A DNA stretch of 58,883 nucleotides, the filler included, from Sphacelaria rigidula (taxonomy: Eukaryota): NCBI GenBank assembly GCA_964200075.2. It is 9 parts of 9 records of this genome, joined end to end, with 100 filler letters (N's around TTAATTAATTAA, not from the genome) between each part and the next. Parts side by side here need not be neighbours in the genome. Positions count along the whole stretch, not along the records: positions 19,663 to 26,116 come from CAXNAA020019977.1; 8 more parts are not named here. The stretch is one strand, 5' to 3'. Shown one piece after another: positions 1,158-52,216 of the stretch. The translations under genes were made by a program, and so were the position numbers. Every line of letters starts with the position of its first letter. The first letter of the stretch is position 1. The notes under the pieces were generated by a model that searched no databases, was not told the origin of the DNA, and saw nothing but the letters and a program-made list of their open reading frames with translations.

Positions 1158-1760
1158 CATACTGGTGGATGCTGGTGATATTGCGTATTTTGCAGCCTGA
1201 TACTGGCGAATACTGGTAATACTGCGTATTACGCCGTCTCCTACTGGCGTATACTGGTGATACTGGGTATTTCGCCACCTCATACTGGCGAATATTGGCG
1301 ATACTGTGTAATTTGCGGCCTCGTACTGGCGAATATACCGGCGATATTGGGTATTTCGCCGCCTCATACGCGCAGATACTGGGGATACTGGGTATTTCGC
1401 CGCCTCGTACTGGCGGATACTGGCGGTACTGGGTATTTCGCCGTCTCATACTGGCGAATAATGGCGATACTGGATATTTTGCGACCTCGTACTGGCGGAT
1501 ACTGGCGATACTGGGTAATTCGCCGCTTTGTACTGGCAGATACTGGCGATACTGGGTATTTTTGCCGCCTCGTACGAGTGGATACTGTTGGTCCTGGGTA
1601 TTTCAGTGTCTCACACTGGTGCATACTCACGATATTGTGTATTGTGGAGGATAACACTGGCGGATACTGGTGATACTGGGTATTGTCGCCGCCTGGTACT
1701 GGCAGATAATGGCGATATTGCGTATTTCATTGCCTCATACTGATTCATACTGTCGGATAC
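1158..1760. repeat. 41-bp minisatellite (GATACTGG family), array 1
   Basis: Consensus about CATACTGGCG-GATACTGGCG-ATACTGGGTA-TTTCGCCGCCT; three ACTGG motifs at about 10-bp spacing per unit; roughly 14 diverged units. Confidence 0.9.
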
Positions 1761-2494
1761 TAGGTACAATACCCCACGTCCAAAGTGGGGCAATTGGCAA
1801 TGTCTTACGATACTGACGATTTTCTCAGATTCCTTCGCTTGCCACTGCTCATTACATTGGAGACCTGAAGACACTAGAACCCGCTCCACATTTCAAAAAA
1901 ATATCATGTGCTCAATATTGAGTGACTTGCGGACTGACCGGTCATCGAATGTCCCGACATGTTTCAGCCCAAATTCCGACTCTTCGACATTTTCGGTCGA
2001 TCGAGCGTATCCCGATCGTATTTGGAAGAAATGATGAGTTTTTTCTTTGATACACCTAGTTTTTGCACCAGAGCAAAATAACTGCGTTTCACAATCAATA
2101 ACGCCCTCCTGATAAACGAGGTATCTACTCGTATCGCCCGATAACATCGACTAACTCTGACGAAATACCTCGTACTGGTGGATACCGGCATCCACTCCAA
2201 GCACGTGCAGACCTCGAGCACTTCGTTTCCAGGAATACCAATTCACCTACGAACAAGTAGTAGTAAAAGTGTATCATTTTCCCATCACACAAAGCAACAC
2301 ATAACGCAGCAGAAAATACCAGCAAGCACGCAGCGGCAGGAAAACCATGGGGCTAGTGTATGTGGGGTTTGACCAGTGGGGTCTTCTACGTGTGTGTGTA
2401 TGTGGGGTATAGTGTCTCTCGCTGTACCTTGATGCAGGTACTGGAAAATATCACATATGTTTTCGGATTAATGTCACTGAGTATTTCGCCGAAA

Positions 2495-3025
2495 GATACC
2501 GGCGGATACTGGCTACACTGGGTGATTCGCCGCCTCGCACTGGTGGATACTGGCGACACTGGGTATTTGGCCACCTCATACTGGCGGATACTGGAGATAC
2601 TGGGTATTTCGCAACCTTATATTGGCGGATACTGGGGATACTGGGTAATTCGCCGTCTCATGCTGGCGGATACTGGGGATACTGGGTAATTCGCCGCCTC
2701 ATACTGGCGGATACTGGGGATACTGGGTAGTTCGCCGCCTCATACTGGCGAATACTAGGGATACTGCGTATGTCGCCGTCTCACACTGGCGGATACTGGG
2801 GATACTGGGTAGTTCGCCGCTTTTTACTGGCGGATACTGGTAATAATATTGCGTATTTCGCCGCTTCATACTGGCAGATACTGGGGATACGGGGTATTTC
2901 GCCACCTCATACTGGCGGATACTGGCGATACTGGGTATTTTGCGGCCTCATACTGGCGTATACTGGCGATACTCGGTATTTTTGCCGTCTCGTACGGGTG
3001 GATACTGACCGTGCCCAGTATACGG
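2495..3025. repeat. 41-bp minisatellite (GATACTGG family), array 2
   Basis: Same unit as 1158-1760; CTGGGTAATTCGCCG recurs at 2641 and 2682 (41 bp). Related motifs continue at about 3285-3325 beyond a MITE insertion. Confidence 0.9.
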
Positions 3026-3027
3026 GT

Positions 3028-3275
3028 GACACTTTCTACGATAGCCTCCCCCCCAAAAGTGCATGGTTTTTGGATGCAAAATGTTGACGTAAATCGAAAT
3101 GGAAAAAGCCGAGTACAACGAGCAGCTGGAAATTCCCACGCTTGGGCTCGTTCTCGCCAATGTTGCCAATATGAGGCGCTTCATCCAGCCTGAACCCACA
3201 CATCAGGTGCTGTGTGGTCATTTTTTTCGTGACACTTTTGGGCTGGTTTGGGGGGGGGCTATCGTAGAAAGTGTA
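3028..3275. mobile_element. Non-autonomous TIR element (MITE), 4-bp TSD, Sola-like
   Basis: TIRs GACACTTTCTACGATAGCCTCCCCCC / GGGGGGGGCTATCGTAGAAAGTGTA; GGGT on both flanks (3024-3027, 3276-3279). A related single end lies at about 20073-20108. The Sola call is inferred from GA-type termini plus a 4-bp TSD. Confidence 0.75.
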
Positions 3276-6454: not shown

Positions 6455-6554
6455 NNNNNNNNNNNNNNNNNNNNNNNNNNNNNNNNNNNNNNNNNNNNTT
6501 AATTAATTAANNNNNNNNNNNNNNNNNNNNNNNNNNNNNNNNNNNNNNNNNNNN
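6455..6554. other. Artificial contig spacer (N44-TTAATTAATTAA-N44)
   Basis: Identical 100-bp spacer at 6455, 13009, 19563, 26117, 32671, 39225, 45778 and 52331; the 12-mer gives stop codons in all six frames. Confidence 0.98.
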
Positions 6555-6617
6555 CCGGCTTTGTAGGGATGCGAGGTCAATGGTCTCATGACTATGGCAT
6601 GCATGATCATGAGTACA
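6555..6617 (+). mobile_element. 3' end of C-run-tailed retroposon family B
   Basis: CCGGCTTTGTAGGGATGCGAGGTCAATGGTCTCATGACTATGGCATGCATGATCATGAGTACA followed by a C-run; matches 13900-14212 and 23717-24021. Confidence 0.75.
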
Positions 6618-7154
6618 CCCCCCCCCCTGCTTGAAACTGCTCCTACGATCTACTCGCCGACAAAATCTGTTCCTCACCTGTGGAGATGGATAGGCCATCA
6701 TGTGCGACAAGTACAGGCTGAACTGCGGATTAGCCTCGAAGGTGCGAAGATCCTGGTGTAAGATTTTGAAAATGTTTCCCAGAACAAAACAAGGACGGGT
6801 TGTACACATTCACCATCACCTTATATCATGGCAATTTTCCGTGTTGGATCGTCATCACTACTTTTCCATGCCGTTTTCACTGCTGTGTTGGAACATTTCG
6901 CAAGCCAGTATCAAAGGGTTCACGGGCATGTGTGCAGGTATGTGTACATATACTCTCCACTTGCTTTCCTTTCATTGTTTTAGATCAGCCATTTCTTTCT
7001 GTACTTTGCTAGTGTCGATTTTTCTTTTTCATGACTTTTTTTGTCACGACTTCGTCTGCTATGTCGTTCTGTTCCACCTCTCTTTCTGTTTCTTTTTTTT
7101 TTTCTGCTCCTTTTTACTTTTTCTCAGAGCGTGTTTCAGTTTCGTTTTTGTTAG

Positions 7155-8241: not shown

Positions 8242-9628
8242 CAAATCAAAAGTCGATCTCACCTGCTGTGCTTGCGCTTGCTGACCAACTTGAGAAGGAT
8301 TCGACAAAACGCTCAGGAGTTGTACTATCTCAGCCACAGCCTGTTGTGATACAGCGGGGGGCGGGGGAACAACCAACCACACATCAAAGAGCACGAAAGC
8401 GAATGGTTGAGTGACTGAGGTGTATATATATATATAATGTATACGGTTGGGCCAGCTTGAAGCATTTCTGGCGCTTGTACAGCTTCGCACGGCGCGTGTT
8501 GAAGAGTTCGTAAGCTGAGATTTCGACACAACGTTCATATCACAACACGAAAGAGAGATGCCTTGGCCAAAGATGAAAAAAAAGCAAATTGAAGCCAGTT
8601 TCAGATTTCGACAAAAAAATTGAAAATGCACAAATGTATCAAAGCCATGAAGGCAATACGTTTTTGTGGATTGACGTGTAAAACGGACGAATGGAATTTT
8701 AGCTCACAAATCCGAAAGTTGGATCATGCATTTTGACTAGTATGATGGTGCGCATGTCACCGTGTAGGGCGGCAGTTCGTGGGTTTGGTACCGACATACA
8801 CGCCTTTTTTTTCTCGAGGTCGGCAAAAATACCTCCATGATATAAAAAACAACTCATGTTGCTTGGGTGAAAAATTCTCAACGTGCGTGCGGAAGGTCCT
8901 TGTAAATTCTCGGCAACAAAAAATGAAATTGGGCGCGGCGTTCCACTTTTTGTATCACACCGCTGCCCCGTGGTGGCTCAAGTGGTACAGGAGACTCCAG
9001 CGCCGAGGGCCGAGGGTCTTCAAAGGAAGGCAGCGCGTTCACTGCGCCAAGTTGACGGGAGGGTTTTGTGGGTCCGACTCTCACACCGCCTCGGGCAAAG
9101 CTTTCCGAGCGCTCGAGGCGCCTACTCGGCATGACTGCCGCGAGGTGGTTCAGCCGAGCCTCCGGGTAAGCAGCACACGAACCCGCTAACGGTGTCAACG
9201 TTGGGTAAGGTTTCCTCCTTCCTAAAAGGAATGCGGGGAAAAAAAGCTACGGAGGTCATGAGCTCGAATCCCGACAGATTTTTCATTCTTGCAGAATCTG
9301 ATACCGTCATTGAGGTCATATACTATGCAGCACATCTTCTATTTTTTCTTTCAAGCGGCAGATATCAGCAGGTTGGTCTGCGCGTCACAGCGATATACTC
9401 ACATTACGCTGAGTCGGGAAACTAAAGTAGTAGCCGTTGTGTGGTATATTAGAAAAGTCTCACTTTTTAGACTGGTTCAGCTTATTTCAACGCCTCCCCG
9501 TCCTCGAGACGAGCCAGTCGGTCTCGAGGAATCAGTCGACACATCTGCCACGCGTTATATGCAGAGCGAAAATTGAGGAATTGAGTCGGTGTTGAGTTAG
9601 GCCGTGTTTAGACCGGGTGGGGAGGGGG

Positions 9629-9722
9629 TGTACTCATGATCTTGAATGCCGCAGGCCGTGGTCGTAGGACCATTTACCTCGCATCCCTACAAAGCCGAGA
9701 CGGAACTCGCCGGGTTCTCGCG
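9629..9722 (-). mobile_element. Family B 3' fragment
   Basis: Reverse complement of the family B end; G-runs on both flanks (9615-9628, about 9735-9750). Confidence 0.7.
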
Positions 9723-9895
9723 GACCAGCCTCAGTGGGGGTGGGGGGGGCGAAGGGGCAAGCACATTGAGTCAGATGGCATGTTTTCAGGTTCGCGCTTG
9801 TTTGAAACTTTGACCATGCAGTACTTGGAAATCGTGTGCATGAACCATATGCTTCCCGCATTAGTCATGTTGACCCTTTGGGAGCCCCCCTCGTC

Positions 9896-13008: not shown

Positions 13009-13108
13009 NNNNNNNNNNNNNNNNNNNNNNNNNNNNNNNNNNNNNNNNNNNNTTAATTAATTAANNNNNNNNNNNNNNNNNNNNNNNNNNNNNNNNNNNN
13101 NNNNNNNN
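13009..13108. other. Artificial contig spacer
   Basis: N44-TTAATTAATTAA-N44. Confidence 0.98.
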
Positions 13109-13512: not shown

Positions 13513-13899
13513 TTTTCGAGCGTATACGGATATAGATGTACACTCGAGGCATCCCGGTGTGTGGAGTATTCTGCCGTACCCATCGCTGGAAAAGCTCGCC
13601 CTCTTTCTTGTTGCCTGTGATCCCCTACCCCCCTTGTGTTCATGAGCCTGGTCCGGCGACAACCCGGCGTGCTCCGTCCCGGCTTTGTAGGGGCGGACCC
13701 CCTCTTTATGGGGTTGGCGTAGGTCGGCGATGACACTGTAAAAAAGGCCACTCTCTGCTTAAGCTGGGCAACCAGGTTACCGTTTCTCTTGCGCACTTGT
13801 GTTTTTTCGCGGTAACCATGATGGTCGTCGAGTTGGATCATATTATGCGGCGTGGGAGAACTTCAACTCCTCTCAAAGGGGATTATCGTACTACGTAGT

Positions 13900-14212
13900 G
13901 TTTGAATGGCCAGACACCCATGAGGCAGTGTGGAAGCCGTGGCTTGTCTCTGGAAGTTGCGATACCAGAAGAAAAATAAAGCAACTCATTGGAGGCTGTT
14001 ATCCAAATGCAAGATAATCAGCACGCTTAAGCCGAACAATCTTAGCAGCATGCAGCCCACGCTGCATGCGACTCGCCGAGCACACCACGGCGCTTCGCGT
14101 TTGGTGATTGATTGCGAGCCTTATTCGGCGAAAACCCGGCGTGCTCCGCCCCGGCTTTGCAGGGATGCGAGGTCAATGGTTATATGACTGTGGCATGCAA
14201 GATCATGAGTTC
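13900..14212 (+). mobile_element. Family B retroposon, long copy
   Basis: Collinear over about 300 bp with 23717-24021 and with the reverse complement of 15071-15280; shorter fragments at 13642-13692 and 39153-39224. Confidence 0.8.
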
Positions 14213-15070: not shown

Positions 15071-15280
15071 TGTACTCATATGATCTTGCATGCCGTAGTC
15101 ACGTAACCATTGGCCTCTCGTCCCCTCAAAGCTGGGACGGAGCACGCCGTGTTTTCGCCGGGCCAGGCTCGCTATCAATCACCAAGCGCGAAACGCCGTG
15201 ATGTGTTCGGCGAGTGACATGAAGGGTGAGCTGCATCCTACCAAGATTGTTCGGCTCGAAGCCTACTGACTGGCTTCGAG
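15071..15280 (-). mobile_element. Family B retroposon copy
   Basis: TGTACTCATATGATCTTGCATGCC...GGGACGGAGCACGCCGTGTTTTCGCCGG...AAGATTGTTCGGCTCGAAGCCTAC is the reverse complement of family B. Confidence 0.75.
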
Positions 15281-19562: not shown

Positions 19563-19662
19563 NNNNNNNNNNNNNNNNNNNNNNNNNNNNNNNNNNNNNN
19601 NNNNNNTTAATTAATTAANNNNNNNNNNNNNNNNNNNNNNNNNNNNNNNNNNNNNNNNNNNN
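19563..19662. other. Artificial contig spacer
   Basis: N44-TTAATTAATTAA-N44. Confidence 0.98.
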
Positions 19663-22600
19663 GACTTTCTTCCGGGGGGCTGCGCTACCTGATTCGGTAG
19701 TACGCTTGGAAACGTTGGCCTGTTTCTCCTGTGTGACAGAAGAGTTACGTCTAGCAGTACTCCTATCCTGCGGGGGGGGTCCTTTATCTACTGTCTGTTC
19801 GGGCTTCGGTTCACCTTTACCTTTACTCTGCTGCTCATTGTTACTGGAACTGGATGCGCGACCGTTGTGTCCCTTTTAGAAAGGGGCGTTACCCTTGGGA
19901 GGTTTACCAGGGCATTTTGTGTGTTGTCCAACGTTCTGAGGGTTGTTTCCCGGAGTGGTTTTGTTTTATGCCTCTCTTCAGGTTGCCTACGCTTTTCGAT
20001 ATCGTTACTACGGAAGCAGGCAGAGACTCCAGGGACAACTCGCTATCCGTCTTAGCTAATGCCGAAAAAAGTTGCACTTTCGGGGGGGGGACCATCGTAG
20101 AAAGTGTCGTAGAGTCCCATTTTCTTTCGGCCCTCTCCCACCTTCATCAATGCTTACTTTTATCGGTGGCAACGCTTCTTTTGCTTTCAAGATGCCTTAG
20201 TGCAGTCGCTAGCCGTCATGCTTGTCACGCCTCGTCGTTCCTTTACTCTTCCCCGTGCCTACCTTTTTTCTACTGCGATGTGTTCCAAAATCAGTACATT
20301 CAAAGCATTACCGACTTCTTCACATCCGACATCATTCACGCCAGATTTTGGCAGCATCTGTGACTGTGCAGCGGCTTCGTTTCTTCTCATCTTGGGCTCC
20401 GTTTCTTTCGGCTTTGTGTCGTGTTCTGTGCCTGAGCGTCTTTCTTTGCTCGTACCGAATCGTGGAAATCAATTTCCACCAAACGTGGCTACTTTTTGCT
20501 TTTCCCCGGCGCTTTGGGGGCCAAGAGGGGGAGGTGGGTGGGGTAGGAATGCCCTGCGTTCTACACGCAGCTAGTATAAACATGAGTTACCTGATATGAG
20601 GGCGGGAAGATCAAGTGTCTCGAATTAGTAATGTTCCTACCAGGGTGATCAAGTCGCTTGATATTGATGTGGTGTCAGGTCAGTTGATGTGACAGTTGAT
20701 GCTTCCGTGAAGCCATTTCCTTACTTTCGTGAACCTGGGATCTTATCCAACATCACGAGGGCTATTAGAAGTTGGTTCTTGTTCCCTGCGACATTTCGAT
20801 TCATGCGTTTGCTGTTACTACACGTCTATACAGCAGCAGGTGGCAAGTTGGTCGTTTAGATCGCACACCGGCAATTTTTCACCTTGCAGTGTGTTCCTTG
20901 TAGTTCGATCATTGTTTTTGGGCTCATTCTTCTTGTATACCGCTCTCGTGTAAAGACTTCCTCTGTCAACTCTTGCGTTTATGATCATGGGTGGTACGCT
21001 CCACGCACCCCGTGATCACGATCCGGAGGGATCGAACTAGAGTGTTCGAGGAATCAAGCTAATGTGACGTAAGAATTCAAAATTAAAAGATGACAGTGCT
21101 CCGAAGGTGGGAGTTGAGATAAAATATGTCCGTGCCATGTATTTTGAGCACGTATCACTCCCGTGCCGTGCCCTTCCCGACTTTCCGTAAAAAAAAGAAT
21201 GGTCAAAGGACGAGCACGGCGCCCAAACTAGTCGCGGTGCTATCAACAATGGTTATGATTGCCTCGTCGAACATTCACATGAGCTCTTAGCTCGTTTTTG
21301 CTCACGTAGAGAGAGTAAAACCAAGGGTCACGACGGGTAATGCATCCACGGCGCGCACGGAGGCGTGTCTGTCCCCGTTACAAACGGAAACCCTCCCTCT
21401 CCTCTAGTTGGAATACCCGTAGGCCACATCAACTAGCCCTCTGCGCCAGTCAGCCGAAAAGCTGGGCTCATCCTCGCATTACCCTTCAACCATTACCCCG
21501 CAATCCACAACAGATACCGCCAAGCTGCGGTGCTTCTTCTCCACGATATAGCCCTGGATGTCACTCGCAAGGTTCCTGATTATTCTCGCATGCCTGCGAG
21601 CGCCACGGCGTGCGCCAAGGGTAGCTCCGCGGAGTATTGCGCTGCGGTCCGGAATATTCGGCGTTCGCCACAAGTGAAGGCTTGGCGAAAATCTAGCCGC
21701 TTCATTTTCGGAGAACGCCAAGCGATAAGCGCCAGGTACGGAAACTCCTGAAATCTTGGGAGATCTCCGGGAAAACTATGTCGATTAGAACGGCCTTGAC
21801 TTGAGTGTCAAAATAAGCATCTAGCGACGTTATAAATTCCGCCGCTCACGATGTCACCCAGCCTTATTGCTCAGCCAGCAGGATTGAATTCGATTTCAGT
21901 GTGTATCGTTTGTTATTCCGTCGACATGAAGTTAACCGGCGGAATACCGTTGTCCCCATAACCAAGGTCTCCATTTAATGATCTTCGAAGCACATCGAAT
22001 AGGCGTAGAGGGGTTTTCGCCTTACAACCGCAGAACACGACAGGCGAGAGGTCCCGATCTGGAATAGCATTGTCAATCTGTGTAGAGTTCAACCAGCGTG
22101 CAAATCCTTTGCTATTTGTGAGAAGAGAAGGTAATGCCACTTGTACCACACGCGACCATCCGGCTACCCCCATAAAAATCCTCTCTGGCGGTTTTCAACT
22201 GCACATACTTCGTGCCCCAGGTTCACATATTTCACATATACCCATGGTAATACCGGTACGATTACAGAGAAACCAACGCATGTGCACTTAAACATGTAAA
22301 TATGTGTATCCGCGCACCATCTCTGGGAAATATCCTCTACTCTGGTGCTTTTTTTTTACCAGAACAACGTTGATATCACCCTCCAGGCTCAAGACGTTCA
22401 CAACTCAACGTGTCTGTAAATGCGTTTTCCGCAGAGAAGCCCGCATAACAATGTTCTCAAAATAGTGTTTTGTTTCCACAAAATGTGGTTGTAGCCTGAA
22501 CGAACTCCCTGGGAGGGGGTAAATGTGCGGGCCCGTCGGCCTAACTTCACCCGTCCCTAAACAGAGGCGCTCCGTTAGTTGCAGATCCACCCCACAATGC

Positions 22601-22982
22601 CGTGACCCGTCTTTTGATAGGGAAGCTCCCAAGCTTCCGAGCTTCGAACATATTAACCAGTCTCCAAGGACGAGAAAAACAGTTGCGATCCATGCTGGCA
22701 ACATCCACGTTCGCACCGACGATTCGAATCTTTGGCCGATGCTCATGAACCCGGTACCATCTGCCCGGAGGAACGACCTGTTGAGTTCCGTGTTCAGCTT
22801 TCATACCACGGCTCCATCAAGGTGAGAACGTCCCGCGTAGCCACCATCGAGAAAGGTTCGCCTGGAGAATGCTGACGATGAGCAGCATATCCTACTGGAG
22901 ATCAATACTTACCGAAGGCGAAGATACGACTCGATGGTGGTTGTTGAGCTACCAACTATGATCCGCCCTCTGCCTTGGCTCA

Positions 22983-23117
22983 TCAACGAGGCTTTGTTTT
23001 TCTCAACTCATTGAGGATACGCTTCGTGGCGATAGTGTCTTCATCATTTTCCCCAAGCGACTTTCTGCGAATTGCCAAGGCCCTCTCGAGGCTAGCTTCG
23101 GCCTCCTTGTACATTCC
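22983..23117 (-). CDS. Terminal exon of a TPR-repeat protein (kinesin-light-chain-like TPR; NB-ARC-TPR type)
   Basis: CAG acceptor, phase 0, GMYKEAEASLERALAIRRKSLGENDEDTIATKRILNELRKTKPR*; a diverged capping repeat in phase with the upstream 126-bp exons. Confidence 0.8.
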   Translation of the reverse strand, partial: GMYKEAEASLERALAIRRKSLGENDEDTIATKRILNELRKTKPR

Positions 23118-23716
23118 CTGCACGTGTTTCGGGGGCATATAAATGTATGAAACAGGCGAGCAGCGGACACGCACACGAGTTGGCAAATGCGCTGTGGAAC
23201 TCAGTCGACGAAATACTCTGCGAGATTCATTGTGCCTTCAGTAGCACGTCAAGTATCGGGGCGTATCGTGATCTGCTACCTGCAGATCGGGACTGAGTGT
23301 GACCAATAGCCTGCATCATATGACGGAGGTGATGCAAGCTGTAGAGATCCCAGCCGGATACCGGAATCGGAGCTGGGGCAGAACGTAGCCAATGTCCAGC
23401 GCGGTGGTCAGGGGTATGACGGATCCAGGACGTGCCGCTCATTGAGCAAACCATGCGGTACATTCCTGGGTTCCCGCTTCCGCGCCTTCACATCGGCGAA
23501 GCATCAGGTCAGCGGTCAGCCAGCGCGACAGGGGATTATCTCATGACAACGCGACTGAGACGTTTCCCAGCGCGTCGTGCACGACAGCGGGAAGCGGTCC
23601 CCAACGAGTCAAGTTCAACAACGCCTTCTATCACACGTTTTCACATGCCACGATGACCCAGGCTAGAGAGCTGTCGGTGAATAGCGTAACCAATCCCCCC
23701 CCCACCACCACCACTG

Positions 23717-24021
23717 GTTTGAGACCCATGAGGCAGTGTAAAAGCTGTGGCTGTCGCTGGAAGTGGCGATACCACAAAATGAAGCAACTCATTGTTGGCT
23801 GTCATCCAAGTGCAAGATTATCATTAGGCTTCGGGACGAACAATCTCGACAGGATGCAGCTCTCCCTTCATGCGACTCGTCGAACACACCACGGCGCTTG
23901 GCGCTCAGTGGTTCGGGTATGCAAGCCTGGGCCGGCGAAAACCCGGCGTGCTCCGTCCCGGCTCTGTAGGGATGCGAGGTCAATGGTCTTATGAGTCTGG
24001 CATGCATGATCATGACTACAC
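23717..24021 (+). mobile_element. Family B retroposon in the last TPR-gene intron
   Basis: Matches 13900-14212; C/CA-rich runs on both sides; a second short 3' stub follows at about 24055-24092. Confidence 0.8.
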
Positions 24022-25084
24022 CCCACACACACACACACACACCAGCGACCCTTCTTGATCTCATGACTGCGACATGCATGATCACGAGCACACCACCAGT
24101 GCACGGTGCTGGCTTGGTATGGGCGTAAAGGTCTTGCGACAACGACATTAAAAATCATAGGTACACCCCGTCTTTCCCGCCCTCCGTCGCCTTTTTTCCG
24201 CGTAGGATTTCATCTCTGCGGACGATGTTGTGGGGAAATAAAAGATCCAGAAGGATCGCACGAACGAATAGGAGGGTCACCATAAGGCGCGCGGTATAGA
24301 TGTGACAGCGAACGTGAACACATGCCGTGTAGTGACGTAACGAGGGTAAACACGCGGTAAAGTTTAAATGGAAGTGGGAATCACCGATCTTAGACCAGTA
24401 TACATACCCTGGTGTACGCTCTGGGCCAGTCTTGAGATGTGAAACCTTTTGAGCACACAAGTATTCCTGACTCAGCCGCATATCGCAACCTGATTACGCA
24501 CGGCTCTGCCGCCGTTCGAATCACGTTGACGCGCACCGTCACAACCGTACTGGGAATGCTGCACGATGACACAAAGCTCGTCAGTAGCTGCATCATGGAA
24601 GACCAACTCAGAGACGACTGTCACGTACAACGGGAGCAGGCAAAAGCGCAAACTGAAGTTGGGCTGCATTGCTCTTCCTCGATTAAATGAGAAAGGTTCC
24701 CTCAGCAGAGACTCTTCGCGAGATCGCTGGAACCGGGCGCAGAAGTATAGATATTCCAACGCACAGGTTTGCTTTGGTTTAGGATTCAGATTCCCTGTCC
24801 ATGATTCCGGTTTGAAGCTTCAAAATTAATGATGATGATGCGCTTGATGCAAACTCACGAGATTTCTGCAGGCCGAGGGAGCAAAATGACGGTTTTTAGA
24901 CACTCCACACCCGGCTAGACGGTAACCGACACGCTGAACGGCTCTCACGCGTTCGGCGAGTTGATCACGCCGTACCGATGGCCTCGCCGCCACTGGCCCA
25001 CACCATCACCGAACAACAACCAACACCACACATGGCAGGTGACACGTCGACACACGACTACCCAAAGCCTCAATCGGCTCTCAC

Positions 25085-25210
25085 CTGCGCTTGATACAAT
25101 CCCGCACGGTTGTGAAGCGTCGCGGCCAACGACGGGTGCTCGGCACCTAGCACCTTTTCTTCGATCGTCTGACACTGCTCATACAGCGGCTCGGCCTCCT
25201 CGTACCTCCC
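25085..25210 (-). CDS. 126-bp TPR exon (42 aa)
   Basis: CAG|GRYEEAEPLYEQCQTIEEKVLGAEHPSLAATLHNRAGLYQAQ|GTGAGA; phase 0-0. Confidence 0.9.
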
Positions 25211-25303
25211 CTGCATTGTAGTAATCACCGAACAACAACAAACACTAATCACGGGCGTTCACACGTCGACACACGACTACCAAAAGCCTCCATGGCCTCT
25301 CAC

Positions 25304-25429
25304 CTGCGCTTGATACAATCCCGCACGGTTGTAGAGCGTCGTTGCCAACGACGGGTGCTCGGGACCTAGCACCTTTTCTTGGATCGCCTGACAACGCTCA
25401 TACAGCGGCTCGGCCTCCTCGTACCTCCC
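25304..25429 (-). CDS. 126-bp TPR exon (42 aa)
   Basis: CAG|GRYEEAEPLYERCQAIQEKVLGPEHPSLATTLYNRAGLYQAQ|GTGAGA; phase 0-0; translated by hand, not in the ORF track. Confidence 0.9.
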
Positions 25430-25725
25430 CTGCATTGTAGTACACAGCGTGAGCGCGTGTGCGTTTCACTCACAGATCGACCTACAACTGCGGTGACACG
25501 CTGGCGCCACCGCCCCGCCCGCATGTGCAGGCGGTGAGGGCTGTATGCTCACAACGAATGGTGCTACGCCTGGTTGTCACGACTCTCACGCGTACGGCGA
25601 GTTGATCACGCCGTACCGATGGCCTCGCTGCCACTGGCCCACACCATCACCGAACAACAACCAACACCACACATGGCCGTTCACACGTCGACACACGACT
25701 ACCAAAAGCCTCCATGGGCTCTCAC

Positions 25726-25851
25726 CTGCGCTTGATACAATCCCGCACGGTTCGCGAGCGTCGTTGCCAATGACGGGTGCTCGGGACCTAGCACCTTTTC
25801 TCGGATCGCCTGACACTGCTCATACAGCGGCTCGGCCTCCTCGTACTTCCC
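25726..25851 (-). CDS. 126-bp TPR exon (42 aa)
   Basis: CAG|GKYEEAEPLYEQCQAIREKVLGPEHPSLATTLANRAGLYQAQ|GTGAGA; phase 0-0. Confidence 0.9.
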
Positions 25852-26116
25852 CTGCATTGTAGTACACAGCGTGAGGGCGTGCGCGTCTAACTCACAGATC
25901 GACCTACAACTGCGGTGACACGCTGGCGCCACCGCCCCGCCCGCATGTGCAGGCGGTGAGCGCTGTATGCTCACACAACGCACGGTGCTACGCCTGGTCG
26001 TCACGGCTCTCACGCGTACGGCGAGTTGATCACGCCGTACCAATGGCCTCGTTGCCACTGGCCCACACCATCACCGAACAACAACACCACACATGGCCGT
26101 TTACACGTCGACACAC

Positions 26117-26216
26117 NNNNNNNNNNNNNNNNNNNNNNNNNNNNNNNNNNNNNNNNNNNNTTAATTAATTAANNNNNNNNNNNNNNNNNNNNNNNNNNNN
26201 NNNNNNNNNNNNNNNN
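26117..26216. other. Artificial contig spacer
   Basis: N44-TTAATTAATTAA-N44. Confidence 0.98.
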
Positions 26217-26447: not shown

Positions 26448-27487
26448 CTTGCGTAGGGCGTGACATATACTTCCATAGATTGTTCGTTTGTGTCTTGAGT
26501 GCCGATCGAGAAATTCTGCGGTCATGGGCATCAATACTTGGCGTATCACCCATGCATGAACGTTTCCCACCAAAATGTCCGCCGTGCCCCGACGGCCAAA
26601 GCGGGACACATTCAAATACTACTTCGGGTCGACTTCAGGAGTTTGACTCCCCTGACAGTTGGAGATATGACATCTAAGCATATTTTTGGTTATCACCATC
26701 CCTGCAGATGACAGAATTCAGTTTAGGCCTCTCGTTAGGGCGAACGAAAGAGCAGTCTCGCAAAAACGCTTTTATAGCCCTTCTGCGTCGTTTTAAGCCC
26801 TAAAAGAGAGTTAGGCGTAGTTTGACATCTTGGAACGACTTCCTGTACGAGTACTAGTTGAGAAGGTTCCAGGACAGCTTTGCGTGGTCCGGTCACCGCA
26901 GTTTTTTATTTTGGCCAAACAAGCAATTTTCTCGAGAGACGGTCAAGTCCAGAGAAAAATTACCTTTCTTCCCCCCCAGATCTGACCGTTCTTGAACAAA
27001 AATTCAACTCTGGCAAAAAAAAAAAAAGCGGCCATCGGAAAACTCGAAGATGTCCTGTAGCCGTCTCAACGAGTTGAGCAAGTCATTCCAAGGTATCAAA
27101 CTCCGCCTAGCTCTCTTTTGGGTTGTAAAACGACGAAGAAGGGACCAAAACAGCACCCTCACACGACTTTTCCCCCTGTTTGTCATAAGGAGCGGCCTTA
27201 GCTATTGGGAGGGAGAAATAAATAAAAGAACAATGAAAGAGTCGAGACAGCGCGTGGGCGAGCGGTTCGGACAAACCAGAGTTCATACGGGTTGACTACC
27301 TGTGAATGTTGAACGCGAATCATGTACCAAAGAGTCATCTGGTACGAATCACGGATGGCAAAGTTGTACGTTCAAGGTCGTACCGCACAAATCACGAACT
27401 GGGGACGAGTGCGTCACGTGCAGTTCTCACACAAATCAAGAGTGCGACATATGCACGAAAAACACAATTCCTGAAAAAAATACTAGT

Positions 27488-28030
27488 GGGAAACATGTAC
27501 AGTTGATTAATCTCGTATGGACGGAAGGCGGGGAACAGGTACGTACTAGTCATGCTGCATATATGGAAAATGGGGAACGTGTCGCTTGATTCACCTCGGT
27601 ATGAATCGAAGGTGGGGAACATGTACGTACTAGTCATGCTGCATATATGGAAAATGGGGAACATGTCGCTTGATTCACCTCGGTATGAATCGAAGGCGGG
27701 GAACACGTACGTACTATTCATGCTGCATATATGGGAAAGGGGGAACATATCACTTGATTTACCCTGTATGAATCGAAGGCGGGGAACAAGAAAGTGGGTA
27801 ACATGTACGTATGATTCACGCTGTATAAGTGGAAATTCGGATACACGTACGCTTGATTCACGTCGGGTGGCTGGAAGGTGGGAGACATGTATCCATGATT
27901 CATGCTGTATGGATGGAAGGGGAGATACATGTGCCTAAAATCCATGCTGCATGAGTGGAAATTGGAAAACATGCACCAATGATTCATACAAGACGGATGA
28001 AAGGTGGGAAACATGTACCCATGATCCATA
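27488..28030. repeat. 84-bp dimeric minisatellite (two about 42-bp subunits) decaying to monomers
   Basis: GGGAACA.GTACGTACTA recurs at 27531, 27615, 27699 (84 bp), with a second GGGAAC subunit halfway. Confidence 0.85.
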
Positions 28031-32670: not shown

Positions 32671-32770
32671 NNNNNNNNNNNNNNNNNNNNNNNNNNNNNN
32701 NNNNNNNNNNNNNNTTAATTAATTAANNNNNNNNNNNNNNNNNNNNNNNNNNNNNNNNNNNNNNNNNNNN
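32671..32770. other. Artificial contig spacer
   Basis: N44-TTAATTAATTAA-N44. Confidence 0.98.
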
Positions 32771-38761: not shown

Positions 38762-39224
38762 TTCGGTCTCGCACTGACCACTCCCTTTAAGTGTGAAGAA
38801 AATATAGCCATCTGTTCCACGCGGTCGGCTATGTCCATCCGGTTTCGCATGGCCTAGAGAGTGAGGGCTGTTGGTGTATTTACCGACGTCTATTGTAGTG
38901 TTTGTGACTGTGTTTGGAGGAGCTCTGCATCTACCAAGAAGAAATGAGTGGGTGGGGGGTGAGGGGCAGGAGGGAGGGGGAAAGGCGCTACGGTGTATAC
39001 ATACATGTCATCTCCGAACATGAACCCCGCCGTGTGACTTCACCAACCAACCCACCCACCCCGCGCGCGCCCCTCTTTATAGAATAAAATTAACCTGTTG
39101 TCTTGGTCATTGTACTGCTCTAGCATGGTACCTCCCTTCCCCCCCCCCCTACCCGTGGCTGTCTCTGGAAGTGGCGATACCAGATAGTAAAGCAACTCAC
39201 TGTAAGCATTTATCTAAAGGCCAG

Positions 39225-39324
39225 NNNNNNNNNNNNNNNNNNNNNNNNNNNNNNNNNNNNNNNNNNNNTTAATTAATTAANNNNNNNNNNNNNNNNNNNN
39301 NNNNNNNNNNNNNNNNNNNNNNNN
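39225..39324. other. Artificial contig spacer
   Basis: N44-TTAATTAATTAA-N44. Confidence 0.98.
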
Positions 39325-44639: not shown

Positions 44640-45076
44640 TATAGCTGTCTCTTTCCAAGCAAAGTCCGCACACGGCCGACAGCGAAAATCTGCGATCCTC
44701 GGTAAACGCAACGGTGACGAGAGTTCGGGGCTGAAGTATCAAAGCGAATCTCGTTGTGACATACCTGCGCAGATCCTAATTTTGGCTTATTATCAGGGTC
44801 GGAAAGGTGCTGCTCCCAATAGAATCATCGACGTTCCAATGTATCTGCTATCCACTGCTTTTTACGCTTCTGCTTGCGGCTTGGGGCATGGGCCGGGGCG
44901 GAACGGGGCGGGGGGTGGGGGGGGGGGGGGGGATTCATGATCATGGATGGGGTGGGGGGGGGGGAGACGGGAGGGGAAGGGNNNNNNNNNNCAGCCGGAT
45001 TGGCCGGACCCGGAGAGGGAGCGGGGCCCCCTTGCCAAGTCGGGGCCCCCGCGCGAGTGCGTGTACACGAAATCAG

Positions 45077-45777: not shown

Positions 45778-45877
45778 NNNNNNNNNNNNNNNNNNNNNNN
45801 NNNNNNNNNNNNNNNNNNNNNTTAATTAATTAANNNNNNNNNNNNNNNNNNNNNNNNNNNNNNNNNNNNNNNNNNNN
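45778..45877. other. Artificial contig spacer
   Basis: N44-TTAATTAATTAA-N44. Confidence 0.98.
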
Positions 45878-46004
45878 ATTTTATTCTGAAGCTGCGGAAG
45901 CAAGTGGTCTAATCAACCACGGTGCAACCTCTGCATACTATTGTTCGCTGAACAGTAGTTGACCTGTCGTAAGGACAGTGCCACGACCACGAATTATTCC
46001 AACA
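45878..46004 (+). repeat. 3' part of the 5' LTR
   Basis: Ends in TTCCAACA, the inverse of the TGTTGGAA start at 52226; followed by TGTTTTGAGCCG, a possible degenerate GGTTATGAGCCC-type PBS. The two LTR pieces do not overlap, so identity cannot be shown. Confidence 0.6.
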
Positions 46005-46203
46005 TGTTTTGAGCCGTCGATTCGCGACCGCGTAGGTCTTAAGGTCATCGGCCTTCGTTTCGAGACTACGTCGGTCAGCACCAGCGAGGGGACTTCCCAT
46101 CAAGGTCGTCCCGGCAGCTAAAACGTGAGAAGAGCCCTATCCTCATATTCGTTTTTTGATCAAGGTTTTAGGTGTGATAAATTCTCACACATAGTGTAAC
46201 AAG

Positions 46204-49200
46204 ATGAATAATCAAGGAGAACCATCTGTTGCACAGCTCATCAGGAGCATCAGGAAATTCGACGGAACGAATTTCCTTGACTGGAAGCGCAGCACGCGCG
46301 CAATGATTTCCCTCACACATCCTGGGATTTTGGATATAATGAATGGAAGTAAACGACCCGCGGAAACCTTTGATGACGTGGAGCACACTCAAGGTGCCCA
46401 ATCAGTTCCAGTTGCACGACCCAGGTCAAGATCAACTCCGCCACACACCCGCTCCCAAGGAACCGCGCCGTCTTCATCTGAAGAGGCAGCCGAAACAAGT
46501 GATCCAGTTGGGGACCCGCTGGCTGGCAGTGGAGTGGACTTCTCTCGGGAGGATGCACATGTGAGAGTTGTGGTGAACAGATCTGAAGTTAATTATTGGG
46601 ATCGCTGCAACGAAAAGTTGTTCAATATACTATAATTGACAACTACAGGCCCAGCGGGTAGTTTTCTTCTTCGCTTCGAGCCGAAGGGCCACGCAAGACC
46701 GGATGGCAAAATTGCATGGGAGGCACTGGTCGATATATACGAGCACTCCTTGAAGCAACGGCGGCGTATTCTTATGCGTCAGCTAGATAACATCAAGATG
46801 TCACCCGGCCAAGATCCTGACGTGTTTTTGACCAAGATCTATGAACTACGTGATCAGCTGGTGTACATGGGTGAGCCCATTTCAGATGATAGACTCACGG
46901 ACATCGTGGCGGAAGGCTTGACAGATGAATACGACGGGATAAAGTATGATGCGGAGCGTGACCCAGACCTCAGCATCTCCGACATCGAAGTTACAATGAT
47001 AAATATGTATTCAAATCGCGTCGCACGCGGAATTTTGTCGAAGGGAACACGCGGCCGTGATTCCGCCATGATAGCAACCTCACCTCTCGATTCATCTGCA
47101 ACACCTACAAAATTTGCTGGGAAATGTTTTTCCTGCGGTCAGCCTGGACACCAAAGCCGAGACTGTCGCTCAAAACGACAACCTCACAGCAGGAGCAGGA
47201 CTGTAAAATGGTGCAGCCTGCATCGTACAAATAAACATGAAAACTTAGAATGTAAGAGTCAAATTACTAACGGTGCTGCGCCGACGAGTAGCAGCAGGTA
47301 CAAAAAGTACCAGAACAAGAACAACCATCGCCGTCGTAACACGCGGAACAGCAACAACAACTCCGGCTTCAGCACGAACAACACCATCAACCATCCGAAT
47401 CAAGCGAATACCGCCACCATGGACCCTGCGTCAACCACTTCTTCAACTACTGCTCCTTCCAATGATCGAGCTCAAGACACCAGCGGACTTTCATCTTCAA
47501 CATTGATTGAAAAATGCGCGCCACCGAGTGGCATAGGCTATACCTTTTTTGCCGATCCTGCAGACAAGGACATGACTCAGCTATCGGCTTCGATATCATT
47601 TAAGATGGTATGCGACTCCGGGGCCAGTCATCACTACATCGACAATCAGATACTCCCTAATATTGAAGAGGAAATGTTTGATTATGTGAAACTCGATCCT
47701 CCCATGAGAATTCTGACAGCTGGCCGTCATCTCCTCAGTGGGACTGGAAAGGGAGTACGACACTCCATCGTCTGTGATCGACAGGGTCATCAACAATCCG
47801 TCCGCCTTCCGGCCATTATTGTTCCAGGCCTCGGTAAACATCTTTTTCCACCTGTCGAGGCATTACTGAAAGGAGTATTAACTATATTTTCGGTAAATTC
47901 TCACGTGGATCTTGGAAGCTTCAAAATTCCTATCCGGACCGACAATACCGGTACGCTACACTTCCTCAACATGAAACTTATTCGGGATCAGAAGACATTC
48001 CGCACAAACTCCGGGTCTACGTTTACAGCTAAGGTGGTTTCTGGAGACTGCATGGGCCAAGGAACAGCATTTACAGCTATGGCCACCGAGGACGACCCCG
48101 CGGCTCTTTCAACCACTGTAAGTGCAGAAATATGGCATAAACGCCTGGGCCATCCGACTGAACCAGTTATGCGTCGTATCATGAATACACCCGAGGCGGG
48201 TGTCAAGTTTACAGGTTCACTTTCTTCGTGTGACACCTGCATGCTAAACAAAAGCACCCAGCAAAACCATCCGAAGACCGCGGACTTTTCATCAGTGACT
48301 GAGCGTCTACAACTTGTAACAACGGACCTGTCAGGACCCATCATACCGACTGCATGAAGAGGATATAGGTATATGGCTAAATTCATCGACCACTACAGTC
48401 GACTGAAAGTTGTATACTTTTTCAAGGCAAAAAGTGAGGCAATTGCTACCGTGTGCAAGGACGTTCAAGACGTGGCAATTCCCTTAGGACTACGAGTACA
48501 CCGCCTGCGGTCGGATCGGGGGGGATAATATACCGCAGACTACTTTCGACGATACTGCAAAACTACAGGAATTCTCCAAGAGTTCACCTGTCCACATACT
48601 CCCCAGCAAAATGATATGTCAGAACGCGACGGAAGACCTATTCTAAACATAACCCGTTGCCTCTTGAACGAGGCGAACCTACCCAAATACCTGTGGGGTG
48701 AGATCGCAGCAACTGCAGTATTTTTAATCAATCGTCTGCCACATCGGAGCATCAACAGCGAAACACCGTATTACAGGATGTTCGGGAAACAGGCGAAATT
48801 ATCGTTTCTACGCACCATAGGTTGTCGTGCATTCGAACACAAGGAAGGACACCTCAACAATTGGAAGACAAGGCATGGGAGGGAGTTCTGATAGGGTACG
48901 ACAGCGACAGCCCTTCATACCGCATCTACGACCGGCACTCCGGCAGGATAAGTAGTTCCAGAAACGTCACATTCATTGAGCAAGCATCCGGAGCTCCAAC
49001 CAATTTGTGGCAAGAACCAACTCCGAGTACTTGGGAGGGAAATATTGACAATCAACAATACGAGGAACATACTAATCAGAATAATTTCAACTTCAACAAC
49101 AACGTTCTTGAAGGTATCAAGCAGCTGGAAAATATCGAAGACAGTTCTACTACTTCAATACATCCAATGCGACTTCGACCTGCTGGCAGTGTGGAACAGC

Positions 49201-50924: not shown

Positions 50925-51152
50925 CTCTACCGACGGAGGTAACAGATGTTCGTCATTAACAAGGATGACGAACTAACAGGCGTGCGTCATTACCAGTACG
51001 TCATTTTCAAAGGGGGCGTGTCAACTTTCGTACGTCAAACACTTCGACAAAGCAGGGCTGGGACCACCACCAACGCACGCCCAGTCACAACTCTCAAACC
51101 ACCTCTCCCATCTTCATCTACCGACATACATCACTACTTCCTTTCTTCAACA

Positions 51153-51773: not shown

Positions 51774-52216
51774 GTCCCGAGTGTGCAGTGTTAATAAATG
51801 AGTACTGTCTCTTGATCTAAGGTTGTTGAGTATCAGAGTACGTGTGCTTGATATTTGCATACTGAGTGAAGTGCTGCATTTTTTGGGAAAAACCATTTGG
51901 GCTAAAGGCACCGAAATTTTGATGTCATTCAAATAGCCCGAGTACATATGTCTAGGGATGAAATTCCACCAGTGACGATATTTCTTCAAGTAAACGTATA
52001 CACCTGTACGCATAATAAACAGACTGATTTTTACATATCAGCTCAGCGTATTTCGGTTGATTCTTCGGTTTGATTTGAGTTGAGTTTCACCCATCAGTAC
52101 AGCGTACCTTGTAGCTGACCTTTTACACATCAGTACAGTGCGCTTTGTGATACTCTTCGTTCATTTGTCTAGTTCACGATTTGATTGAAATTTGATTTGC
52201 TATCCACGTACAACTT

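What the first reader, a model, noticed from the sequence alone, without database searches (positions are those of the whole stretch)
22983..26116. Modular TPR receptor-like gene built from interchangeable exon+intron cassettes
Seen: three 126-bp phase-0 exons, each encoding one 42-aa TPR unit, embedded in near-identical introns (422-bp period), then a diverged capping exon; the contig breaks inside the next cassette, so the real array is probably longer and collapsed. Established: brown algal NB-ARC-TPR and ROCO-LRR genes have one-repeat-per-exon domains proposed to diversify by exon shuffling as candidate immune receptors. Inference: homogenised introns supply recombination substrate, and symmetric phase lets units be gained, lost, reordered or skipped in frame. 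The class is known, but the mechanism and any somatic component are, to my knowledge, unresolved.
Basis: partly seen in the sequence, partly recalled or inferred. Interest (0 to 1): 0.72.

Follow-up and report, generated by a model that had tools for sequence, protein, structure and literature searches.

The report
Brown-algal one-repeat-per-exon TPR gene tail
This is the expressed 3' end of a brown-algal TPR-repeat gene of the known candidate immune-receptor type, in which a 422-bp exon-plus-intron unit was copied in tandem and the assembly broke inside the array; it is an ordinary new member of a described class.

Summary
On the minus strand lie three 126-bp, 42-codon, phase-0 TPR exons (25726-25851, 25304-25429, 25085-25210) with AG/GT borders, then a terminal TPR cap exon (22986-23117, stop 22983-22985). 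The 422-bp period holds only once. The B-A intron is a 93-nt deletion form, giving 219-bp spacing, and the cap lies behind a 1,967-nt intron holding a dispersed repeat. The window is a chain of ~6,454-bp contigs joined by N/TTAATTAATTAA linkers, so this contig is 19663-26116 and DNA beyond 26116 is not adjacent. It ends 29 nt short of the next exon.

Contigs of three runs that behave as RNA join the predicted exon borders; a DNA run does not. The nearest proteins are brown-algal NB-ARC-TPR proteins (units up to 83% identical, same cap type; 80-90% to an 88-aa Sphacelaria rigidula model). No NB-ARC is in the window, so that domain is inferred.

Intron divergence (5-8%) matches exon synonymous divergence (7-12%), so recent tandem duplication of the whole unit explains the "homogenised" introns. 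There is no sign of targeted diversification, structured intron RNA or somatic change. The class, its exon shuffling and its alternative splicing are published. Verdict: new member of a known kind, interest low.

The parts
25852..26116 (-). Partial cassette intron upstream of exon C, cut by the contig end. It corresponds to positions 30-296 of the 296-nt intron, so the next exon would begin 29 nt beyond the break.
   Evidence: blastn 93.3% over 269 columns; 95.4% without gap columns; contig end and linker
25726..25851 (-). TPR exon C: 126 bp, 42 codons, phase 0
   Evidence: Pfam TPR_12 E 1.2e-10
25430..25725 (-). Full-length cassette intron, 296 nt, GT..AG
   Evidence: not unusually structured (z -1.30)
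25304..25429 (-). TPR exon B: 126 bp, 42 codons, phase 0
   Evidence: TPR_12 E 2.1e-11
25211..25303 (-). Short cassette intron, 93 nt: the first 80 nt plus the last 13 nt of the 296-nt form, with 203 nt deleted
   Evidence: an RNA contig joins across it in X1 (skips 93, ends CT..AC on the + strand)
25085..25210 (-). TPR exon A: 126 bp, 42 codons, phase 0. It is the most diverged of the three and matches 38 of 42 residues of the single unit of the Sphacelaria rigidula model P0001.
23118..25084 (-). Last intron, 1,967 nt. Only its first 147 nt (24938-25084) are homologous to the cassette intron, which marks the 3' edge of the duplicated unit.
   Evidence: blastn 93.9% over 147 nt; spliced out in contigs of X1 and X6 (skips 1967, CT..AC)
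23721..24024 (.). Dispersed repeat of about 300 bp inside the last intron, followed by a short CA run
   Evidence: six further matches on other contigs of the window, 80-94% identical; very high summed depth in all four runs
22986..23117 (-). Terminal exon: 44 codons, a half TPR plus a capping helix, followed by stop 22983-22985
   Evidence: [quoted passage not shown]
21394..22985 (-). Stop codon plus a probable 3' untranslated region of about 1.6 kb, with a step in depth near 22520-22550
   Evidence: X1 contigs with 0-1 differences: 22878-23075 depth 2213, 22518-22822 depth 2229, 21394-22547 depth 863, then 21033-21422 depth 45. No Pfam match for the 131-codon open frame inside it. Inferred, not mapped.
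26117..26216 (.). Artificial linker (44 N, TTAATTAATTAA, 44 N) between unrelated contigs
   Evidence: eight identical linkers between pieces of 6,453-6,454 bp

Best explanation
The region is the 3' part of an expressed brown-algal gene of the NB-ARC-TPR (NLR-like, candidate immune receptor) family.

Shown:
- Its TPR domain is encoded one 42-residue period per 126-bp phase-0 exon.
- The last three repeat exons and their introns are copies of one 422-bp unit.
- The exons are spliced at the predicted GT..AG sites onto a family-typical C-terminal cap exon.
- The short-read contig ends inside the next copy of the unit.

Inferred:
- The array grew by tandem duplication (unequal crossing-over or replication slippage) of a segment holding one exon with parts of both flanking introns. 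That would explain why the 296-nt intron is a junction product and why homology stops 147 nt into the last intron.
- Exon A is older and B, C and the cut copy are younger.
- One intron later lost 203 nt.
- Because every unit is in phase 0 and of equal length, germline gain or loss of units, or skipping of exons in the RNA, changes the number and order of TPR periods without breaking the frame. That would alter the ligand-binding superhelix of a receptor whose N-terminal NB-ARC switch lies on unassembled DNA.
For: 1. Exons, frames and splice borders; Pfam TPR_12 at E 1e-9 to 2e-11 per exon.
2. Cassette homology and its limits. Exons are 90.5-93.7% identical. Introns are 95.4% (upstream of C vs C-B) and 92.5% (C-B vs B-A). 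pS of 0.067-0.119 is about the same as intron divergence, so exon and intron are the same age.
3. Exon differences group B with C: 6 A-specific differences against 2 B-specific ones.
4. Splicing. Joints with CT..AC ends on the + strand run 23116->25084 (X1 depth 2132, X6 677), 23116->25725 (X4 836) and 25209->25303 (X1 126). All are 0 in the DNA run X9. Exon and 3' contigs in X1 have depth 863-2229, against 145-248 for identical intron contigs and 45 downstream.
5. Relatives. 3,077 proteins reached E <= 0.001, and the highest unit identities among the 120 listed belong to brown-algal or unnamed eukprot proteins.
6. I picked 20 such proteins by name or identity. 6 long ones have a unit >=78% identical to exon B or C (P0003, P0005, P0006, P0007, P0014, P0016). 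5 of these 6 list PF00931.
7. NB-ARC was confirmed in the 4 of 4 proteins rescanned: P0003, P0004, P0009, P0014 (E 1.6e-14 to 7.7e-21). P0003 also has TIR_2.
8. The cap exon matches the last 65 or fewer residues of P0001, P0003, P0016, P0035, P0048 and P0117. P0003, P0016 and P0117 carry NB-ARC.
9. The published description of the class fits: 126-nt, 42-residue TPR exons in 13 of 24 Ectocarpus NB-ARC genes (PMC3341825 sections 16, 19).
Against: - No NB-ARC, TIR or further TPR coding sequence is in the window (0 of 305 matches outside 22900-26116). The contig ends, so the N-terminal domain is unproven.
- Of the 20 relatives I picked, 9 list PF00931 and 11 do not (5 of the 11 are named partial). 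TPR-only models with near-identical units exist, for example P0007 at 83%.
- No inactivated TPR exons were found in the introns or on the other strand. These are one of the published marks of shuffling in Ectocarpus.
- pN/pS is 0.74-0.93, and variable sites are not enriched at family-variable positions (p 0.25). This gives no support for selection on binding residues, and it also fits relaxed constraint.
- The runs are Logan contigs whose kind is not on record. Their RNA nature is my inference from the joints and the depth pattern.
- The 93-nt intron has no listed DNA contig across it.
Confidence: 0.7

Rival explanations
1. The gene is a TPR-only gene (no NB-ARC) of the same repeat family, for instance a scaffold protein or a reservoir locus of TPR exons.
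For: 11 of the 20 relatives I examined list no PF00931, among them P0007 (unit 83% identical) and P0002, a 1,916-residue protein with TPR families only. No NB-ARC is in the window. PMC11378527 (passage) mentions LRR-only loci as a possible reservoir for shuffling in the sister ROCO family.
Against: 5 of the 6 long proteins with the most similar units carry NB-ARC. The cap exon type is found at the ends of NB-ARC-TPR proteins. 5 of the 11 models without NB-ARC are named partial, so their N-termini are missing.
Confidence: 0.18
2. The region is a transcribed pseudogene or orphan 3' fragment left by the fast birth-and-death turnover of this family.
For: pN/pS is near 1 among the three exons. The closest database entry is an 88-residue model of just one unit plus the cap (P0001). 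The Ectocarpus family holds many putative pseudogenes; P0004 is named 'likely pseudogene', and section 16 of PMC3341825 agrees.
Against: All four exons keep open frames and canonical splice sites. They are spliced, and the junction contig's depth equals that of the terminal exon. P0001 comes from a contig of at most 6,971 bp, so its shortness probably reflects a cut assembly as well.
Confidence: 0.08
3. The cassettes are substrates of programmed somatic rearrangement, as Zambounis et al. hypothesised, so that cells of one individual carry different arrays.
For: There is only a hint. The TPR exon joined to the cap is C-like at the one discriminating base in X4 but A- or B-like in X1. Exon-exon joints not predicted by the contig order also occur (25209->25084 in X6; 25846->25303 with 4 extra letters in X1, X4 and X6).
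Against: The last 27 nt of A, B and C are identical and the shorter side of these joints is 21-28 nt long (31 for 25209->25084, 43-44 for 25846->25303), so exon skipping, paralogues or strain differences explain them as well. The DNA run shows no rearranged joints in the array among the rows shown. PMC11378527 states that no somatic recombinant loci have been reported (passage).
Confidence: 0.03
4. The irregular cassette structure (93-nt intron, only three units) is a short-read assembly artefact of a longer regular array.
For: The contig ends inside a repeat copy at a stretch shared by all copies. Summed depth of DNA contigs over the cassette intron bins (1,532-3,065) exceeds that of unique flanks (48-290) in X9. 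The tool warns that this figure is not a copy number.
Against: The 93-nt intron has its own substitutions (7 mismatches in 93 aligned nt against the C-B intron), and the alignment shows no sequence shared across the deletion junction that a k-mer assembler could have mis-joined. The three exons differ from each other at 8-12 positions, so they are distinct copies rather than one collapsed consensus.
Confidence: 0.1

Closest known systems
Ectocarpus NB-ARC-TPR genes with repetitive TPR exons (Zambounis et al. 2012, PMC3341825; sections 15, 16, 19 and 27 plus passages read)
   Same: 126-nt, 42-residue exons, one TPR period each, phase 0 and of equal length. The exon motif is of the published type GKYxEA[E/D]PL[Y/F].... 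The family shows gene and repeat turnover. Units are up to 71% identical to the Ectocarpus siliculosus protein P0004 and up to 83% to other family members. The C-terminal cap is of the same type.
   Different: NB-ARC is not seen here because the contig ends. No inactivated TPR exons lie in the introns. The organism is a different brown alga; the nearest named protein is from Sphacelaria rigidula. Here the whole 422-bp exon+intron unit is visibly duplicated, with intron divergence equal to synonymous divergence. In the sections and passages I read I did not find such an intron analysis for TPR loci.
Alternative splicing of shuffled TPR exons in brown-algal NB-ARC-TPR genes (Teng et al. 2023, Plant J 114:246). 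The paper is not held; I know it only through its title in reference lists and through citing passages in PMC11378527 and PMC13449251.
   Same: In-frame exons that can be combined differently in the RNA. One run here (X4) joins a C-like exon directly to the cap, which would skip B and A.
   Different: The evidence here rests on one discriminating base in contigs and does not separate skipping from paralogues or strain variants.
Brown-algal ROCO-LRR genes (PMC3341825; PMC11378527, section 11 read)
   Same: One repeat per exon, symmetric phase, tandem exon arrays, and a proposed role as diversifiable receptors.
   Different: Those have 72-bp LRR exons (phase 2 according to PMC11378527), LRR copies on the non-coding strand and a ROC-COR GTPase. 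None of that is present here.
Sphacelaria rigidula 88-residue model P0001
   Same: One TPR unit (38 of 42 residues identical to exon A) followed by the cap (80% identical). It is the nearest sequence found.
   Different: It is a two-exon model that starts at the ATG lying 6 nt upstream of the exon in the intron's acceptor region, which is also present before each exon here. That start is probably an annotation artefact of a cut contig.

Membership tests
Brown-algal NB-ARC-TPR genes with repetitive TPR exons (Zambounis 2012) | TPR domain encoded by 126-nt, 42-residue exons, one period each | tested here: met
   Three such exons with AG/GT borders; TPR_12 E 1e-9 to 2e-11; definition in PMC3341825 sections 16 and 19
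Brown-algal NB-ARC-TPR genes with repetitive TPR exons (Zambounis 2012) | Successive phase-0 exons of identical length | tested here: met
   Exons start and end on whole codons. RNA contigs join 23117|25085 and 25210|25304, read with the tool's +1 cut. The criterion is in PMC3341825 section 17 (passage).
Brown-algal NB-ARC-TPR genes with repetitive TPR exons (Zambounis 2012) | N-terminal NB-ARC domain (PF00931) in the same gene | tested here: inconclusive
   None in the window (0 of 305 tblastn matches outside the TPR exons). The contig ends at 26116, neighbouring pieces are unrelated contigs, and no genome is held.
Brown-algal NB-ARC-TPR genes with repetitive TPR exons (Zambounis 2012) | Closest relatives are NB-ARC-TPR proteins and share the C-terminal cap | tested here: met
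   5 of the 6 long proteins with units >=78% identical list PF00931. NB-ARC confirmed in 4 of 4 rescanned. The cap matches the C-termini of P0003, P0016 and P0117, all with NB-ARC.
Brown-algal NB-ARC-TPR genes with repetitive TPR exons (Zambounis 2012) | Inactivated or reshuffled TPR exons in the introns of the coding strand | tested here: not met
   tblastn of the four exon peptides at E <= 10 finds only the four exons on this contig. Only about 2.6 kb of intron is available.
Brown-algal NB-ARC-TPR genes with repetitive TPR exons (Zambounis 2012) | Diversifying selection on TPR exons | tested here: inconclusive
   pN/pS 0.74-0.93 from 8-12 differences per pair. The 7 variable positions are not enriched at family-variable positions (p 0.25; 203 units). 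The data are too few to decide.
Pfam TPR_12 / TPR_10 (kinesin-light-chain-like TPR) | Score above the curated cut-off | tested here: met
   TPR_12 scores 38.3-44.3 bits against a cut-off of 30.1 for exons A-C. The terminal exon scores 24.7 bits, below the cut-off.
Somatically rearranged cassette receptors (VLR- or V(D)J-like) | DNA-level differences in cassette number or order between cells of one individual | not testable with these tools
   Only contigs of public runs could be laid. Among the rows shown, the DNA run has no rearranged joint in the array.

The most novel reading that the evidence does not exclude
The exon joined to the cap differs between runs: C-like in X4, A- or B-like in X1. 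Exon-exon joints also occur that the contig order does not predict. On the boldest reading these reflect DNA-level differences in cassette number or order between strains, life stages or cells. The locus would then be a live example of ongoing, possibly somatic, cassette rearrangement in a brown-algal receptor gene, rather than alternative splicing or paralogues.
Probability: 0.06. Interest if true: 0.8.

Novelty: new member of a known kind. Interest (0 to 1): 0.25.

Why it matters
Brown algae lack the NLR-LRR receptors of plants. Their NB-ARC-TPR and ROCO-LRR genes, built with one repeat per exon, are the main candidates for pathogen receptors, and whether they diversify somatically has been open since 2012.

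This locus adds little to that question by itself. It does give a clean, small example in which the duplicated unit can be delimited: 422 bp, with its 3' edge 147 nt into the intron. Intron and synonymous divergence agree, which argues for plain recent tandem duplication rather than a special homogenising or targeting mechanism.

It also shows how such arrays break short-read assemblies. Repeat numbers, "short" gene models such as the 88-residue P0001, and family counts in fragmented brown-algal genomes are likely to be underestimates. The unique flanks (the last intron and the cap exon) would serve as anchors for long-read or PCR tests of array variation.

Tried and rejected
- **Own genome:** not held, so the 296-nt intron and NB-ARC exons could not be sought genome-wide.
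- **Public metagenome contigs:** scanned with a 25-nt intron motif and a 26-nt exon/intron-border motif; 0 matches each.
- **Earlier findings of this scan:** searched by place, sequence and words; nothing.
- **Sequencing runs:** no RNA holder is listed as such. Three runs of unrecorded or guessed kind were used and behaved as RNA.
- **Depth over the array:** summed contig depth over the TPR exons (84,000-99,000 in X1) and over the cassette introns in the DNA run cannot be read as copy number. The tool says so, and many paralogous exons map at 90% likeness.
- **Parts without listed contigs:** for example across the 93-nt intron; these say nothing.
- **AlphaFold2 of P0001:** run without an alignment to place helix borders; mean pLDDT 68, pTM 0.28, helices merged. 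Not used.
- **Structured or small-RNA-bearing intron:** the 296-nt intron folds no better than shuffles (z -1.30; 20 of 200 shuffles as good). There were 0 Rfam matches at E <= 0.1 on the whole contig. Rejected.
- **Other genes on the contig:** six further open frames, including one across the intronic repeat and one in the 3' region, gave no Pfam match better than E 0.013, all below cut-offs.
- **Hidden or inactivated TPR exons:** none in the long intron or on the other strand.
- **Family-wide variability test:** negative (p 0.25).
- **Teng et al. 2023:** could not be read, and supplements of PMC3341825 were not opened. Both may hold intron or site-level analyses that bear on how new the intron observation is.
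- **Failed paper search:** one search failed on term syntax and was not repeated.
Full report
**What is in the sequence**

The finding lies on the minus strand. Three open 126-bp segments at 25726-25851 (C), 25304-25429 (B) and 25085-25210 (A) each read 42 codons. Each is preceded by ...tgcag and followed by gtgagag. Each matches Pfam TPR_12 above its curated cut-off (E 1.2e-10, 2.1e-11 and 1.5e-9).

A fourth, diverged exon at 22986-23117 reads 44 codons and ends in the stop at 22983-22985. Its TPR_12 match (E 2.7e-5, 24.7 bits) is below the cut-off.

The exons align to TPR_12 profile positions 17-58 and to TPR_10 positions 16-41. An exon is therefore one full 42-residue period that begins in the turn inside a repeat. 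From general knowledge of TPR structure, it carries the second helix of one repeat, the linker, and the first helix of the next.

**The cassette**

Start-to-start spacing is 422 bp (C to B) and 219 bp (B to A), not a uniform 422 bp.

| Intron | Coordinates | Length | Relation to the 296-nt form |
|---|---|---|---|
| Upstream of C (cut) | 25852-26116 | 265 nt kept | positions 30-296; 95.4% identical, gaps excluded |
| C-B | 25430-25725 | 296 nt | reference |
| B-A | 25211-25303 | 93 nt | first 80 + last 13 nt; 203 nt missing; 92.5% over shared columns |
| A-cap | 23118-25084 | 1,967 nt | only first 147 nt homologous (93.9%) |

The A-cap intron also contains a ~300-bp dispersed repeat at 23721-24024, with six further matches on other pieces of the window. 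tblastn with the four exon peptides finds no other TPR unit, intact or broken, on either strand of the window.

**The break, and what the window is**

N runs occur at regular steps. Eight 100-bp linkers (44 N, TTAATTAATTAA, 44 N) separate pieces of 6,453-6,454 bp. The window is thus a chain of size-sorted separate contigs. The gene's contig is 19663-26116, and DNA beyond 26116 is not its neighbour.

The contig ends 29 nt short of where the next exon should start, in a stretch that all intron copies share. This is what a short-read assembler does at a repeat. Its hope of finding NB-ARC exons upstream cannot be met in this window. Twelve family proteins gave 305 tblastn matches, none outside 22900-26116, and no genome is held.

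**Expression and splicing**

One look-up found nine runs holding the stretch, from three studies, none recorded as RNA. I laid Logan contigs of X1, X4, X6 and X9 on the contig.

- In X1, X4 and X6, contigs join the predicted borders with CT..AC ends on the + strand, which is GT..AG on the gene's strand.
- The cap is joined to a TPR exon: 23116->25084 in X1 (depth 2132) and X6 (677), and 23116->25725 in X4 (836, two contigs).
- A is joined to B: 25209->25303 in X1 (126).
- None of these joints is in the DNA run X9.
Depth is 45 below that and 145-248 in the introns.

I conclude that these three runs behave as RNA, that the gene is transcribed and spliced as predicted, and that it has a 3' untranslated region of roughly 1.6 kb. 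The last point is inferred.

The X4 joint would skip exons B and A. However, the last 27 nt of A, B and C are identical and the shorter side of the joint is 28 nt. The assignment therefore rests on one base. Exon skipping, a paralogue, an unassembled upstream unit or a strain difference all fit.

Other joints also show that more exons of this kind are transcribed than the contig holds. These are 25209->25084 in X6, and 25846->25303 with four extra letters in X1, X4 and X6. They do not say from which locus.

Contigs about 9% diverged from the cap exon and last intron occur in X6 and X9 (records 22, 27, 28, 30, 31). These point to a paralogue or a related strain.

**Relatives**

The cap exon alone found one protein, the 88-residue Sphacelaria rigidula model P0001 (80% identical). 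Its single TPR unit matches exon A at 38 of 42 residues.

Exon C found 3,077 proteins at E <= 0.001. Among the 120 listed, the highest unit identities (78-83%) belong to brown-algal or unnamed eukprot proteins, and bacterial TPR proteins are lower. I picked 20 such proteins by name or identity.

- Six long ones have a unit >=78% identical to exon B or C, and five of these list PF00931.
- Rescanning four of them (P0003, P0004, P0009, P0014) confirmed NB-ARC at residues ~220-490 in all four (E 1.6e-14 to 7.7e-21). P0003 also has a TIR domain.
- The cap exon matches the extreme C-termini of P0003, P0016 and P0117 (all with NB-ARC) and of the partial models P0035 and P0048.
- Against this, 11 of the 20 list no NB-ARC. 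Five of those are named partial.

The organism is a brown alga. I did not try to name it further.

**How the array arose and how it would work**

Exons are 90.5-93.7% identical in nucleotides, with pS 0.067-0.119 and pN 0.062-0.088. Introns differ by 4.6-7.5%. Intron and synonymous divergence agree, so exon and intron are the same age. The simplest account is recent tandem duplication of a 422-bp segment holding one exon and parts of both neighbouring introns.

On that account the 296-nt intron is the duplication junction. Its first ~147 nt come from the intron downstream of the founder exon, and the rest from the intron upstream of it. This explains why homology stops 147 nt into the last intron (inference).

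A carries 6 private differences against 2 for B, so B and C are the younger pair. The 93-nt intron is a later 203-nt deletion. It has its own substitutions and no shared sequence at the junction that would suggest a mis-join.

Nothing requires active homogenisation:
- The intron is not unusually structured (z -1.30).
- It matches no Rfam family.
- The seven variable residues (positions 2, 12, 15, 17, 23, 30, 33) are not enriched at positions that vary across 203 family units (p 0.25).

Functionally, equal-length phase-0 units allow gain, loss or skipping of whole TPR periods in frame. That follows from the structure and is the published idea.

**What is known**

Zambounis et al. 2012 (PMC3341825; abstract, sections 15, 16, 19 and 27, and passages read) describe exactly this class.
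- 13 of 24 Ectocarpus NB-ARC genes have 42-residue TPR exons.
- Inactivated exons lie in introns of the coding strand.
- They report some positive selection.
- They propose targeted somatic recombination.

PMC11378527 (2024; passages and section 11 read) reports the same for ROCO genes in four species. It cites Teng et al. 2023 for alternative splicing of NB-ARC-TPR exons. It states that no somatic recombinant loci have been reported and calls combinatorial splicing the simpler explanation.

Teng et al. 2023 is not held. I saw only its title in reference lists and those citing passages. The Phaeoexplorer preprint (10.1101/2024.02.19.579948; one passage) notes that ROCO and NB-ARC-TPR orthogroups expanded during brown-algal diversification.

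Searches behind these statements are. In what I could read I found no analysis of intron-versus-synonymous divergence for TPR cassettes. The unread paper and supplements may hold one.

**Verdict**

The class assignment is well supported by relatives, but NB-ARC is unproven, and the "homogenised intron" step is better explained by recent duplication of whole units.

This is a new member of a known kind, and interest is low (0.25). The boldest reading not excluded is that the run-to-run difference in which exon abuts the cap reflects DNA-level cassette rearrangement. I give that about 6%.

Noticed in passing
window 6455-6554, 13009-13108, 19563-19662, 26117-26216, 32671-32770, 39225-39324, 45778-45877, 52331-52430: Eight identical 100-bp linkers (44 N, TTAATTAATTAA, 44 N) separate pieces of 6,453-6,454 bp. 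The window is a chain of size-sorted unplaced contigs, so adjacency across any of these gaps means nothing. A separate 10-N gap lies at 44982-44991.
   Followed up: yes
window 23721-24024; further matches at 13913-14208, 15080-15269, 6555-6621, 9625-9731, 13645-13692, 39155-39203: A dispersed repeat of about 300 bp, 80-94% identical between copies, sits in the last intron of the TPR gene and on at least four other contigs of the window. It has by far the highest summed depth in all four runs laid. It was not classified, and the open frame across it has no Pfam match.
   Followed up: partly
window 25852-25857, 25430-25435, 25211-25216 (minus strand): Each cassette intron ends ...ACAATGCAG, which puts an in-frame ATG 6 nt before every TPR exon. 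The Sphacelaria rigidula model P0001 starts MQG..., that is, at this ATG. This is probably a gene-caller's start on a cut contig.
   Followed up: partly
window 22823-23762, contigs of runs X6 and X9: Besides contigs identical to the window, versions about 9% diverged cover the cap exon and the last intron (records 22, 27, 28, 30, 31). In X6 the diverged intron version has the higher depth (221 against 28). This suggests a paralogous locus or a related strain.
   Followed up: no
window 46636-50921 (+), on the contig 45878-52330: Copia-type LTR retrotransposon frames: Retrotran_gag_2 (E 7.6e-10), zf-CCHC, gag_pre-integrs and RVT_2 (E 1.5e-63). Several stop-separated frames suggest a decayed or frameshifted copy.
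   Followed up: partly
window 27487-28029: Tandem arrays with periods of 84 bp (3.6 copies, 89% matches) and 42 bp lie on the neighbouring, unrelated contig.
   Followed up: no
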